Virus record (IMG/VR): IMGVR_UViG_2630968543_000001
Direction: 5' to 3' (one strand)
DNA length: 13,368 nucleotides
From: a virus
Lineage: Monodnaviria > Loebvirae > Hofneiviricota > Faserviricetes > Tubulavirales > Inoviridae
The notes beneath the pieces were generated by a model. The model was not told where the DNA came from, ran no database searches, and worked only from the letters and a program-made list of their open reading frames with translations. Within the stretch, counting starts at the first letter, position 1, and each line of letters opens with the position of its first letter. A program made the position numbers and the translations under genes. Positions 4,350 to 5,660 of the stretch are shown here, one piece after another.

Positions 4350-5660
4350 ATGGAAATTGGGTTCCCTTTTATGGGGGATCGTCTCAGCTTATGTCGTTAT
4401 TCTTGGGCTAAGAGGCTGACGGTTTATTCCTTTATTTTTTCCTTTCTCTGGGTTTCCTTTCCCCGATATTCATATTCATTTGTACCAGCAATTGCAGCAG
4501 TGGCTGCGCGGGCTGTTATTCCTAAAGTCGTTGGCCGGGTGCTTGTTCGTCGCTTTGCTGCCAATGATGCGATTTATACGGCATCACAGCTTACAGCAAC
4601 CCGTGTTTTTGTTGGCCGCGCTGCGGCTAATGCTGCCGAATACTTGCCTGCTGCCTCATCATACAAAATGAGCGGTGTTGCAACGTGGGCGGGTATTGCT
4701 GCTGCTGTATCATCTTTTGTTCCGTCTTCTTTGAGTTCATCTGACGGCTCGGTAATGGTAATGACTAACGGTAAAAAGATTTCCGATAATTTATATGAAG
4801 TAACGTACAGTGGTCAAAGTGGTGAAAGTAAGACGATAACCGTTAATTTTGAACCACAGGAATTAAGTCCGGTAATCCTTCATGTTAGTCGTAATAATGT
4901 GGATGCGGGTTCTCCAGTTGTAGGTGTTGAAACAGGATATTCCACGCCAGATAATGCACTTTATTATTATCAGGATTCGAAAGAGCTAATTTATTACTAT
5001 GGTGATAATCCAACTGAAATTGCCAGAAATTATCTTAATGACTATAACTCGCGTACTTATACTGAAACACTAACAAATTTTGAACGCACTGTGACGAATA
5101 AAGTTGTCAACAGTAATGGAGATGTATCCTTTACTGAACAGAATTATAAGTTTACTTATCCTTCCTCATTTTATGAAATACCTGAGATTACACACTTGTA
5201 TAGCAACCCGGCCGCATCTTCATTTCCCGCAGGTATTCCCATGTATGAAAATGTAGCAGGGCTTCCCATGTATTACAGCGTTGCTTATTTAACAGCAGGC
5301 AAGCAATATCAGTATCACAACACGCCTTGTAAAACGACTAATCAGTCAAATGGTGGATATTCGACGATTTGCGCCGTTCCTGAAAAAGAGGATTACACCG
5401 CAAAAGATATTGATGAAAAGAGTGAGCTTACTATCTGGACCAATACCAAATATAAAGCCATGACGGAAGTACTGGAGGCCGGAAATATTGAGTCCATGAT
5501 TGATTATCTGGAGTATCTTGATAGTGTTAGTGTATCGCCAGCACTTCTTGCCGACATGATTAACGAGCTGTGGTCTGAAGCTGCCGTAATACTGCACGTT
5601 TGTCTCATTCCTGAGACTGTTAATCCTTTTACTCTTCTCCAGACACCGCTTTTTTCATAA
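4350..5660 (+). pseudogene. Truncated copy of the pIII-like adsorption protein gene, cut by the tandem-duplication junction
   Basis: The 436-aa translation is identical to the first 413 aa of the 570-aa ORF at 8215-9927, up to WSEAAV. It then reads 23 unrelated codons (ILHVCLIPETVNPFTLLQTPLFS) from the antisense of the repressor 3' region before stopping at 5658-5660. Confidence 0.7.

What the first reader, a model, noticed from the sequence alone, without database searches (positions are those of the whole stretch)
4350..5660. Chimeric truncated pIII-like ORF with a novel 23-aa tail, convergent with repressor copy 2
The first gene-III copy encodes the N-terminal 413 aa of the adsorption protein fused to a 23-aa tail read from the repressor's downstream region, and it lacks the C-terminal membrane anchor. 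If expressed, an anchorless N-terminal receptor-binding fragment could be secreted or periplasmic and might interfere with superinfection, since pIII N-domains are known to bind receptors. The copy-2 repressor transcript has lost its downstream hairpin and would read antisense into this ORF.
Basis: partly seen in the sequence, partly recalled or inferred. Interest (0 to 1): 0.4.

Follow-up and report, generated by a model that had tools for sequence, protein, structure and literature searches.

The report
Junction ORF of origin-nick phage duplication
The truncated "pIII-like" gene is real, but it is best read as a by-product: a 3.9-kb piece of a CUS-1/YpfΦ-type filamentous prophage of E. coli was duplicated starting exactly at the phage's predicted replication-origin nick, an event that recurs in this phage family and also turns up as small circles in metagenomes.

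Summary
ORF 4350-5660 is the first 413 aa of the gene-III-position protein (8215-9927, 570 aa; puvA homologue of CUS-1/YpfΦ) plus a 23-aa tail. It lacks the C-terminal anchor and overlaps repressor copy 2 convergently.

It lies at the joint of a 100 % identical 3865-bp tandem duplication (1721-5585 = 5586-9450). The left edge falls at the loop edge of a hairpin. That hairpin aligns with the M13 (+) origin core and with the phage I2-2 intergenic region. The experimentally mapped M13 nick (T^AATA) falls on T1722^A1723, which is the duplication boundary.

Four other independent junctions end at the same nucleotide: gVIII codon 30, gVIII codon 48, gIV, and a right-end ORF in Yersinia pestis. Every donor sequence ends in GT. 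The 3865-nt unit occurs as 2-3 tandem copies in complete E. coli chromosomes and as closed 3865-nt circles in metagenome and read-run assemblies.

Most likely the phage Rep (pII family) terminated rolling-circle replication at a pseudo-site in gene III, and the resulting mini-replicon recombined into the prophage. The "lost hairpin" is the origin. An exclusion role for the truncated protein is possible but has no evidence. Modest interest; a natural case of known mechanisms.

The parts
1707..1735 (+). Predicted (+) strand origin nick hairpin, intact copy: arms 1707-1719 / 1723-1735, loop GGT. Predicted Rep nick between T1722 and A1723.
   Evidence: Inverted repeat. Fold -16.2 kcal/mol, z -5.4. 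Aligns with the M13 origin core and the I2-2 intergenic region. M13 nick is GTTCTTT^AATA (PMC11962056).
1737..1752 (+). Second hairpin GTCTCAttccTGAGAC directly after the nick hairpin. It occupies the position of the M13 pII-binding palindrome TTGTTCCAAACTGGAACAA.
   Evidence: Conserved 100 % in 11 IMG/VR relatives whose flanks diverge.
1721..5585 (+). Duplicated unit, copy 1 (3865 bp): right half of the origin, repressor, gII, gV, 83-aa gene, gVIII, and gene III codons 1-412.
   Evidence: Exact identity to 5586-9450. Gene content.
5586..9450 (+). Duplicated unit, copy 2. It continues into the intact remainder of the phage.
5580..5600 (+). Novel joint: gene III ...GCTGCCGT | AATACTGCACGTT, the right arm of the origin hairpin. 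GT (5586-5587) is shared by both parents. This is a chimeric origin without the left arm.
   Evidence: No nick hairpin forms here.
4350..5660 (+). Chimeric ORF (436 aa): PuvA/pIII-position protein residues 1-413 plus a 23-aa tail.
   Evidence: phrog_3942 profile positions 2-381 of 546. Exact protein in public assemblies.
5629..6075 (-). Repressor copy 2 (HTH_3/CI-type, 148 aa). Its 3' end overlaps the chimeric ORF by 32 nt.
1764..2210 (-). Repressor copy 1.
8215..9927 (+). Intact gene-III-position gene (570 aa; puvA homologue), with a conserved C-terminal module (about aa 400-570) and a TM anchor at aa 549-570.
   Evidence: Literature PMC4266046.
9445..9456 (+). Donor pseudo-nick site inside gene III: GCTGCCGT^TAAT. 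The break lies between 9452 and 9453.
   Evidence: It lies in the 3' arm of a local hairpin (fourth fold).
2382..3434 (+). gII replication initiator (350 aa), copy 1; copy 2 is at 6247-7299. Pfam Phage_CRI + G2P_X_C; 58 % identical to I2-2 pII.
4297..4319 (+). Terminator-like hairpin after gVIII and upstream of the chimeric ORF (copy 2 at 8162-8184).

Best explanation
The window is one genome unit of a CUS-1/YpfΦ-type filamentous prophage of E. coli, which integrates at dif, plus a partial tandem duplication.

Proposed mechanism:
- The phage Rep (pII/G2P family) nicks the (+) strand origin between T1722 and A1723 and starts rolling-circle replication rightwards through the repressor region, gII, gV, gVIII and into gene III.
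- Instead of terminating at the regenerated origin after a full round, it cleaved and re-joined at a pseudo-site in gene III (GCTGCCGT^TAAT).
- This closed a 3865-nt circle that carries a chimeric origin, the repressor gene, gII, gV, gVIII and a truncated gene III.
- This mini-replicon then recombined by homology with the resident prophage, which yields exactly the observed tandem duplication. Alternatively it coexists with the prophage as a free circle.
- Further copies arise by unequal crossing-over or repeated integration.

The 436-aa ORF is simply what gene III reads into across the joint: the origin right half and the antisense of the repressor's 3' end, until the first stop. The half hairpin 'lost' by repressor copy 2 is the left arm of the origin.

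Shown: the duplication, the joint, the origin-like element and its homology, the recurrence of joints at this nucleotide, and the circles and arrays. Inferred: that Rep made the cut, the circle intermediate, and the homologous-recombination step.
For: (1) Exact 3865-bp tandem repeat with a 2-nt GT overlap.

(2) The left boundary lies in an element with the same two-hairpin layout as the M13 origin core. The element is 90 % identical to a stretch of the large intergenic region of phage I2-2, between the morphogenetic signal and gII. I2-2 pII is 58 % identical to this phage's Rep, and Rep carries Pfam Phage_CRI/G2P_X_C.

(3) The three-way alignment puts the published Ff nick GTTCTTT^AATA (PMC11962056) on GTTGGT^AATA, that is T1722^A1723. 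This equals the duplication edge within the GT ambiguity. A random edge would coincide with about 3/9500 probability.

(4) The element is invariant in 11 IMG/VR relatives, although both flanks diverge in the four most divergent of them.

(5) Four more independent joints have ...GT|AATACTGCACG. All are direct tandem 'origin to X, then origin' arrangements; in the three arrays with both copies in hand the units are identical.
- gVIII codon 30, 2419-bp unit, L016.
- gVIII codon 48, 2472-bp unit, L027.
- Right-end ORF, 7578-bp unit, Yersinia pestis L026.
- gIV, Klebsiella spallanzanii L015.
The protein-tail census could detect ORFs that read through an intact left arm, and did so once (P0050/L028). 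It was therefore not restricted to the nick.

(6) All five donors end in GT, and GT^AAT is invariant among the natural origin variants seen.

(7) The gene-III joint occurs in two phage lineages that differ by 12 SNPs in the unit, 3.3 % in the left flank, and in cargo genes. Units within each genome are identical.

(8) Two complete chromosomes carry 3 units (STIN_95, OZ039018.1). Three assemblies give closed 3865-nt circles and one a 3851-nt circle.

(9) Ff pII makes the nick, stays on the 5' end, and cleaves and ligates at termination. [quoted passage not shown]
Against: - No experiment shows that this Rep nicks here. The nick is placed by alignment with M13, and the GT overlap leaves ±2 nt of ambiguity.
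- The DNA pattern scans could only detect joints at positions -3..0. Only the window's own joint and the protein-tail census are free of that bias.
- Apart from GT, the donor sites share little. Two share AAGT^GGTGTT, and two share CCGT^ followed by A/T-rich sequence. A nick-triggered but microhomology-driven repair event is therefore equally compatible.
- The reciprocal class (left arm joined to foreign DNA) was not found, but only small data sets could be searched.
- Other chimeric fusions in this phage family do not involve the origin (P0039, P0043, P0046), so general prophage decay also makes junction ORFs.
- No packaging signal or (-) origin was identified in the unit, so 'miniphage' in the transmissible sense is unproven.
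- The classic M13 precedent (Michel and Ehrlich 1986) is cited from memory. It could not be retrieved.
Confidence: 0.75

Rival explanations
1. One reading: the truncated, anchorless PuvA/pIII fragment is a functional product. It would be exported to the periplasm, where it occupies the phage's receptor or co-receptor and protects the lysogen from superinfection. This would explain why this particular joint is the most commonly seen.
For: Ff pIII made inside the cell confers superinfection immunity by saturating TolA (PMC7070036, citing Boeke 1982 and Riechmann and Holliger 1997). The ORF keeps its native start, RBS and upstream operon, plus one confidently modelled domain, aa ~205-365. The gene-III joint is much more frequent than the other joint types: at least 12 contigs and two lineages, against one each.
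Against: There is no similarity of the N-terminal part to any known g3p receptor or TolA-binding domain, and the YpfΦ receptor is unknown (PMC4266046). The tail sequence is dictated by the origin and by the antisense of the repressor gene, not selected. Other joints at the same nick cut gVIII, gIV or a right-end ORF, so the event does not depend on gene III. PGAP calls it a pseudogene. The joint is rare: about a dozen contigs against at least 1000 for the intact protein. The frequency can equally reflect a hot pseudo-site or one successful clone. Copy-2 repressor transcription would run antisense into it.
Confidence: 0.1
2. Ordinary illegitimate recombination (replication slippage or template switching at a hairpin with 2-nt microhomology), unrelated to Rep. 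The coincidence with the origin would arise because palindromes are fragile.
For: The joint has only a 2-nt overlap. The left edge is at a strong hairpin. Other origin-independent fusions exist in the family.
Against: Five independent joints share the same nucleotide on the origin side, while the partner sites are scattered over 9 kb. All are in the polarity expected for displacement from the nick, and all have GT at -2/-1, matching the invariant GT^AAT of natural origins. Hairpin slippage normally deletes or duplicates between short repeats flanking the palindrome. It does not normally join one fixed loop position to distant sites.
Confidence: 0.1
3. The tandem arrangement in this particular window is an assembly rendering. 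The strain would hold one prophage plus a free 3865-nt circular replicative form, and the assembler threaded the loop once. The joint and the ORF would then exist only on the circle.
For: The two copies are 100 % identical. The same unit is assembled as closed circles with 55-nt or 30-nt terminal overlaps in three samples, and as a 3851-nt variant in a fourth. Short-read assembly graphs cannot tell the two situations apart (inference).
Against: Two complete chromosomes (STIN_95 CP054965 and OZ039018.1) place three units in the chromosome next to hipBA. This rival changes only the location of the joint, not its origin or the ORF.
Confidence: 0.2
4. An adaptive RS1-like satellite arrangement. 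The extra origin-bearing unit would be kept because it changes phage output or immunity. It doubles repressor dosage and provides two origins in tandem, so that induction releases mini-genomes that interfere with or cheat on the full phage.
For: CTXφ-type prophages need tandem origins to release ssDNA, and YpfΦ forms arrays (PMC4266046). Pf and Ff miniphages behave as cheaters (PMC11996451). The unit carries the repressor, gII and gV. The circles contain only the chimeric origin, which suggests that it works.
Against: The unit is bounded by the origin nick, not by attP/dif, and has no antirepressor. It is rare among carriers: 1 of about 110 complete E. coli genomes with the phage. There is no evidence of packaging. 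Nothing shows selection.
Confidence: 0.15

Closest known systems
CUS-1 (E. coli O18:K1:H7) and YpfΦ (Yersinia pestis) filamentous prophages
   Same: Same phage family. It sits next to hipBA, where dif lies, forms whole-genome tandem arrays, and has the same gene order: repressor, gII, gV, gVIII, puvA/gene III, gVI, zot, secretin, two right-end ORFs, and variable ORFs on the attL side. UTI89, NU14 and NC101 carry it.
   Different: Published arrays are whole genomes joined at imperfect dif sites (PMC4266046). Here the repeat is a 3865-bp sub-genomic unit joined at the origin nick.
Ff (M13/f1/fd) (+) strand origin and pII nick; I2-2 intergenic region
   Same: Rep of the same Pfam families. A nick hairpin followed directly by a second palindrome. 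The motif T^AATA.TG.AC..TTGT..CA is shared. There is a 40-nt match to the I2-2 intergenic region.
   Different: The loop is shorter (GGT against an 11-nt loop) and -1/-2 are GT, not TT. The origin lies 3' of a divergently transcribed repressor gene, as ig-1 does in CTXφ (own knowledge), not between gIV and gII. It has not been mapped experimentally.
Illegitimate recombination at rolling-circle origins (M13 origin in plasmids, pC194; Michel and Ehrlich 1986, cited from memory)
   Same: One endpoint is fixed at the Rep nick. The other is at scattered sites that resemble the bases 5' of the nick.
   Different: Those were laboratory deletions in hybrid plasmids. Here the products are natural, seen as tandem duplications in chromosomes of E. 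coli, Y. pestis and Klebsiella, and as circles in metagenomes.
Miniphages / defective interfering genomes of Ff and Pf
   Same: A sub-genomic circle with an origin that lacks morphogenesis genes (gene III C-terminus, gVI, gI, gIV) and arises repeatedly (PMC11996451).
   Different: This unit keeps an intact gII, gV, gVIII and the repressor. Packaging and interference are untested, and no packaging signal was found. It is also found integrated.
RS1 satellite of CTXφ
   Same: A tandem element next to the full prophage that holds the repressor, rep and ssDNA-binding module.
   Different: RS1 is bounded by attachment repeats, integrates through XerCD and encodes the antirepressor RstC (own knowledge). 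This unit is bounded by the nick and has none of these features.
Ff pIII-mediated superinfection immunity
   Same: A gene-III-position product that retains the N-terminal part of the protein.
   Different: No detectable homology of the N-terminal part to g3p N1/N2. The effect on infection is untested.

Membership tests
Inovirus pIII/g3p-type adsorption protein (PuvA of CUS-1) | Gene lies between the major coat gene and gVI/gI (zot) | tested here: met
   gVIII-like 77-aa gene (phrog_2186 virion structural protein), then 8215-9927, then DUF2523 (gVI position), then Zot, then secretin.
Inovirus pIII/g3p-type adsorption protein (PuvA of CUS-1) | Conserved C-terminal assembly domain ending in a membrane anchor | tested here: met
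   Met for the intact copy: aa 400-570 match other inovirus proteins, several phrogs match aa 467-570, and there is a TM segment at aa 549-570. The truncated ORF 4350-5660 lacks all of this.
Inovirus pIII/g3p-type adsorption protein (PuvA of CUS-1) | N-terminal receptor / TolA-binding domains of the g3p N1/N2 type | tested here: not met
   No Pfam family and no PDB sequence match at E<=10. The AF2 model has mean pLDDT 44, with only aa ~205-365 confident, and Foldseek against PDB found nothing at E<=0.001. Receptor binding rests on the literature description of puvA only (PMC4266046).
Inovirus pIII/g3p-type adsorption protein (PuvA of CUS-1) | Cleavable N-terminal signal peptide | tested here: inconclusive
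   The start at M1 is conserved in homologues down to 36 % identity. A KR + hydrophobic stretch (aa 21-37) looks like a signal, but further hydrophobic Ala-rich segments follow up to aa ~125. No signal-peptide predictor was available.
Ff-type (+) strand origin with pII nick site | Cognate initiator of the G2P/Phage_CRI family encoded by the phage | tested here: met
   PF05144 E 1e-73 and PF05155 E 5e-34. 58 % identity to I2-2 pII.
Ff-type (+) strand origin with pII nick site | Nick hairpin followed directly by a second palindrome, with sequence alignable to the mapped Ff nick T^AATA | tested here: met
   Nick sequence from PMC11962056.
Ff-type (+) strand origin with pII nick site | Conserved as a cis element independently of flanking genes; lies in the replication intergenic region of a non-integrating relative | tested here: met
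   Invariant in 11 IMG/VR contigs; both flanks diverge in the four most divergent of them. It matches the I2-2 intergenic region between the morphogenetic signal and gII.
Ff-type (+) strand origin with pII nick site | Rep nicks it and replication starts there | not testable with these tools
   Needs in vitro nicking or in vivo 5'-end mapping.
Miniphage / defective interfering genome | Sub-genomic circular molecule with an origin that lacks essential morphogenesis genes | tested here: met
   Closed 3865-nt contigs L021, L022 and L023, and 3851-nt L029. The unit lacks the gene III C-terminus, gVI, gI and gIV. Caveat: a collapsed tandem array could assemble in the same way.
Miniphage / defective interfering genome | Carries a packaging signal, is packaged by helper phage and interferes with it | not testable with these tools
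   No packaging-signal-like hairpin was recognised in the unit or after gIV. Packaging and interference need experiments.
RS1-type satellite prophage (CTXφ) | Bounded by attachment repeats and integrated by XerCD at dif | tested here: not met
   The boundaries are the origin nick and a site inside gene III. There is no dif-like site in the window at <=3 mismatches. The attP-like inverted repeat at 24-83 lies outside the unit.
Rep-nick illegitimate recombination at rolling-circle origins | One endpoint fixed at the nick; several independent partners that resemble the 5' side of the nick | tested here: met
   Five joint types end at T^A of the origin, and all partners end in GT.
Rep-nick illegitimate recombination at rolling-circle origins | Dependence on the initiator protein | not testable with these tools
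   Needs a gII mutant.

The most novel reading that the evidence does not exclude
The 3865-nt unit is a naturally circulating, self-replicating mini-replicon ('mini-CUS') of the CUS-1/YpfΦ family. It would be generated again and again at a hot pseudo-nick site in gene III. It would be maintained in gut E. coli through its own gII and chimeric origin, and it would move between a free circle and a chromosomal tandem array. Its extra repressor copy, its anchorless PuvA fragment, or both would alter immunity, superinfection or phage output. By extension, the same nick-to-pseudo-site reaction (the 7578-nt Y. pestis unit) would be a route by which integrating inoviruses shed their dif/cargo module and become purely episomal phages like IKe and I2-2.
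Probability: 0.15. Interest if true: 0.6.

Novelty: new member of a known kind. Interest (0 to 1): 0.35.

Why it matters
For the finding as written, it matters little. The ORF is a junction pseudogene, and nothing points to a function.

The underlying event is more useful. It places the replication-origin nick of the medically relevant CUS-1/YpfΦ phage family (ExPEC E. coli, Yersinia pestis) at a single nucleotide, using natural 'scars' alone. It also shows that the laboratory phenomenon of Rep-nick illegitimate recombination operates in wild prophages of three genera. It reveals 2.4-7.6-kb sub-genomic units, some assembled as free circles in metagenome and read-run assemblies, that could act as cheaters, as sources of extra repressor, or as steps toward loss of the integration module.

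It is also a practical warning. Such partial repeats and circles can be mis-assembled or annotated as novel fusion proteins.

Tried and rejected
- Megablast of the whole window against GenBank phages: no match. The family was identified through E. coli genomes and the literature instead.
- dif (28 bp, <=3 mismatches): absent from the window and from the STIN_95 locus. The duplication is therefore not a Xer event.
- Idea that 1721 is the prophage end: rejected. The 140-aa gene and the cargo genes to the left belong to the 9504-bp phage unit.
- Terminator reading of the hairpin: the scan did not flag it. It has a 9-10 nt loop as RNA and a weak U tract. Not excluded as a secondary role.
- Domain identity of the N-terminal part of the gene III protein: Pfam, PDB sequence search, AF2 (pLDDT 44) and Foldseek against PDB were all uninformative.
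- Packaging signal and (-) origin: no I2-2-like hairpin after gIV, and only the operator palindrome lies inside the unit.
- P0050/L028 first looked like a sixth joint. It is a natural origin variant with an intact left arm and loop GAATGT.
- Reciprocal joints (left arm joined to foreign DNA): none in IMG/VR or in the fetched loci.
- Michel and Ehrlich 1986 could not be retrieved and is cited from memory only.
- The UPΦ phages (PMC7307601) are a different, IKe-like group that shares only gII/gV homology.
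Full report
**1. What is in the sequence**

The window contains a perfect tandem duplication. Positions 1721-5587 are identical, base for base, to 5586-9452 (period 3865). Each unit holds:
- a CI-type HTH repressor on the minus strand (1764-2210 / 5629-6075);
- a rolling-circle initiator of the pII/G2P family (2382-3434 / 6247-7299; Pfam Phage_CRI E 1e-73 and G2P_X_C);
- a G5P-like ssDNA-binding protein;
- an 83-aa membrane protein;
- a 77-aa major-coat-like protein;
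- the first 412 codons of a large ORF.

Only the second copy of that ORF (8215-9927, 570 aa) continues into a conserved C-terminal module and a terminal hydrophobic anchor at aa 549-570. It is followed by DUF2523 (the gVI position), Zot (gI) and a secretin (gIV).

The first copy runs across the joint and ends after 23 foreign residues, giving ORF 4350-5660 (436 aa). The first 413 residues are identical to the full protein. The tail is ILHVCLIPETVNPFTLLQTPLFS. The ORF overlaps the 3' end of repressor copy 2 by 32 nt, convergently.

**2. What the element is**

The window matches about 90 complete E. coli chromosomes at 99.5-99.9 % identity, but over 9504 bp, that is without the duplication. The phage lies beside hipBA, where dif lies. 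In strain MINF_1D it forms a tandem array of whole 9504-bp genomes. The window is thus about one phage genome plus the extra 3865 bp.

Carriers include UTI89, NU14 and NC101. Gene order, the variable ORFs on the attL side and the two right-end ORFs match the published CUS-1/YpfΦ family. In that family the gene-III-position gene is puvA, described as the virion protein needed for receptor binding (PMC4266046).

The 'pIII-like' label rests on synteny, the C-terminal module and that literature. I found no sequence or fold similarity of the N-terminal 400 residues to known g3p domains.

**3. The left edge of the duplication is the predicted origin nick**

Position 1721 lies in the loop of a strong hairpin: AACGTGCAGTGTT-GGT-AATACTGCACGTT (1707-1735; -16.2 kcal/mol, z -5.4). 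A second hairpin, GTCTCAttccTGAGAC, follows directly.

This is the layout of the M13 (+) origin core, where the nick hairpin GAGTCCAC...GTGGACTC is followed by TTGTTCCAAACTGGAACAA. A distant BLAST of the 86-nt element against all GenBank phages found one significant hit. It is 90 % identical over 40 nt (E 1e-5) to the large intergenic region of phage I2-2, between the morphogenetic signal and gene II. I2-2 pII is 58 % identical to this phage's Rep.

In the three-way alignment the motif TAATA.TG.AC..TTGT..CA is invariant. Ff pII cuts GTTCTTT^AATA and stays attached to the 5' end (PMC11962056, citing Asano 1999. Position 5781/5782: PMC11765958). Transferred to this phage, the nick is GTTGGT^AATA, that is T1722^A1723.

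The duplication joint reads ...GCTGCCGT|AATACTGCACG. Because GT is shared by both parents, the crossover lies somewhere between 1720/1721 and 1722/1723. This is exactly compatible with that nick.

The element is invariant in 11 IMG/VR relatives. In the four most divergent of them both flanks, including a different repressor allele, diverge, as expected for a cis-acting site.

**4. The event recurs at the same nucleotide**

I ran two kinds of search.

(a) DNA pattern scans for the origin right half preceded by a non-wild-type base at -3. These found a metagenome contig (L016) in which gVIII codon 30 (...CATCAAGT|) is joined to the origin, giving a 2419-bp tandem unit. They also found a Klebsiella spallanzanii prophage (L015) in which gIV (...AGTCCCGT|) is joined to it. 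These scans can only see joints at -3..0.

(b) A protein census using the translated origin right half as query. This has less positional bias. It returned one ORF that reads through an intact natural origin variant (P0050/L028, loop GAATGT), which shows that it can see non-joint cases. Apart from that ORF it returned only joints at the nick:
- the gene-III joint again;
- gVIII codon 48 (...GTTCTGGT|; 2472-bp unit; E. coli scaffold next to hipBA, L027);
- the right-end 82-aa ORF (...GAAGAAGT|; 7578-bp unit) in a Yersinia pestis assembly (L026).

In the three arrays where both copies are in hand (L016, L026, L027), the arrangement is 'origin to X, then origin right half again', and the repeated units have no mismatch. 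All five donors end in GT. GT^AAT is also the invariant part of the natural loop variants seen: GTTGGT, GTAGGT, GTATGT in I2-2, and GAATGT. Two donors share AAGT^GGTGTT. Two share CCGT^ followed by A/T-rich sequence.

**5. Distribution of the gene-III joint**

- Among 5426 complete E. coli genomes, about 110 carry this stretch of the phage, and one (STIN_95) has the joint, with three units.
- The exact 436-aa protein is on record from about ten contigs, against at least 1000 for the intact protein. These include a second complete chromosome with three units (OZ039018.1) and isolate and metagenome contigs with two units.
- Three contigs are closed circles of exactly 3865 nt: lengths 3920, 3920 and 3895 nt, with terminal overlaps of 55, 55 and 30 nt. 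A fourth circle is a 3851-nt variant.
- Units within one genome are always identical. STIN_95's units differ from the window's by 12 SNPs. Its left flank is 3.3 % diverged, and its cargo genes are different.
- The same joint therefore sits in at least two phage lineages. Either the site in gene III is a repeatedly used pseudo-site, or one event spread and was homogenised. I cannot separate these possibilities.

**6. Mechanism**

*Best explanation (about 0.75).* Rep nicks the origin and replication displaces the (+) strand rightwards. Rep then performs its cleavage-joining step at a pseudo-site in gene III (GCTGCCGT^TAAT) rather than at the regenerated origin. This releases a 3865-nt circle whose origin has a foreign left arm.

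After complementary-strand synthesis, the circle can replicate, since it encodes gII and keeps everything 3' of the nick. In Ff, initiation and termination requirements of the origin are separable. A single homologous crossover of the circle with the prophage yields exactly the observed tandem duplication.

- Shown: the anatomy, the homology of the origin, the nucleotide coincidence, the recurrence, and the arrays and circles.
- Inferred: Rep as the cutting agent, the circle as an intermediate, and the recombination step.

The chimeric ORF follows automatically. No selection is needed to explain it, and PGAP treats it as a pseudogene.

*Rivals.*
- A functional exclusion factor (about 0.1). The Ff precedent is real, but nothing here supports it.
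- Rep-independent hairpin slippage (about 0.1). This fits poorly with five joints at one nucleotide and scattered partners.
- For this window only, an assembler threading a free circle into a single prophage (about 0.2). This would not change the origin of the joint.
- An adaptive RS1-like satellite role (about 0.15).

**7. The 'lost hairpin'**

Repressor copy 2 does lack the left arm of the hairpin, while the second small hairpin remains. With no obvious terminator, its transcript could run antisense into the chimeric ORF. The hairpin is primarily the origin, and the terminator scan did not flag it.

**8. Comparison and novelty**

The closest known things are:
- the CUS-1/YpfΦ prophages themselves (same family; published arrays are whole genomes joined at dif-like sites);
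- the Ff/I2-2 origin;
- illegitimate recombination at rolling-circle nick sites (M13, pC194; from memory, not retrievable here);
- Ff and Pf miniphages;
- RS1 of CTXφ. Membership of that family fails, because the unit is bounded by the nick and not by attachment sites.

I file this as a new natural member of known kinds. It is a sub-genomic, origin-bounded unit of a known prophage family, made by a known type of Rep-associated recombination.

Interest is modest (0.35). The ORF itself is ordinary. The nucleotide-level origin prediction, and the recurrent mini-units and circles in E. coli, Y. pestis and Klebsiella, are worth a short follow-up.

Noticed in passing
L026 (Yersinia pestis GCA_030259335.1, JAQROW010000037.1), locus 2554-17776: A YpfΦ array whose second copy starts at the origin nick, not at dif. 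The 7578-bp unit runs from the origin to the right-end 82-aa ORF (joint GAAGAAGT|AATACTG). It therefore lacks the attP region and the attL-side cargo. A circle of this unit would be a complete but non-integrating phage. This may be relevant to the episomal YpfΦ forms and to how IKe/I2-2-like phages lost the dif module.
   Followed up: partly
L015 (Klebsiella spallanzanii SB6411), reverse strand 1-3565: A heavily rearranged relative with a different repressor allele. Its order is gene III (to window 9387) | gIV 11352-11389 | origin right half ... gVIII end 8149 | gIV 11395-11592 | 12684-13368. It looks as if an origin-to-gVIII segment was inserted into gIV between 11389 and 11395.
   Followed up: partly
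window 24-83: An inverted repeat with 24-nt arms and 88 % complementarity: CGTTATGTTGAAAAGGCCGCTGCG / CGCAGCGGCCTCTTTAGCATAACG. It contains TTATGTTGAAA, close to the XerD arm of dif (TTATGTTAAAT). It is probably the folded attP of the ssDNA genome, as described for CTXφ and YpfΦ.
   Followed up: no
window 104-1175 (minus strand): The variable cargo module on the attL side holds DUF6953 (88 aa) and a 264-aa protein. The latter has a DpnII-MboI-type REase domain (Pfam E 7e-59) and matches the PADLOC model 'Aga_Helical-REase' (E 1e-34). It is replaced by an STM4504/CBY_0614 family gene in STIN_95 and by other ORFs in Y. pestis. This may be defence-type cargo on a filamentous phage.
   Followed up: partly
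window 2256-2312 (= 6121-6177): A 27-nt-arm imperfect palindrome (78 %) between the divergent repressor and gII genes, overlapping promoter-like hexamers. It is a likely operator region.
   Followed up: no
proteins P0039, P0043, P0046: Other fusion ORFs in public data that do not involve the origin: gene III(1-~347)-gIV, gII(1-~165)-gene III(~330-570), and gene III(1-~122)-gIV. Internal deletions are common in this phage family.
   Followed up: no
window 8215-8600 (gene III protein aa 1-130): The N-terminal ~130 residues are conserved down to 36 % identity, hydrophobic and Ala-rich, and modelled with very low confidence. This is unlike Ff pIII. Gene callers disagree on the start: PGAP uses the GTG at codon 51, others use M1, which has a GGAG RBS and cross-homologue conservation.
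   Followed up: partly
L029 / L030 (metagenome and SRA contigs): A variant of the circle with a 14-nt deletion (3851 nt) occurs in a metagenome of the same sample series (contig names prefixed LIAN20-2) as scaffold L027, which carries a different joint (gVIII codon 48). Several mini-units may therefore coexist in one cohort.
   Followed up: no
protein collection clusters: The 90 % clusters returned for the chimeric and intact gene III proteins also list Zot and secretin proteins as members. This points to clustering through fusion or chimeric sequences in that resource.
   Followed up: no
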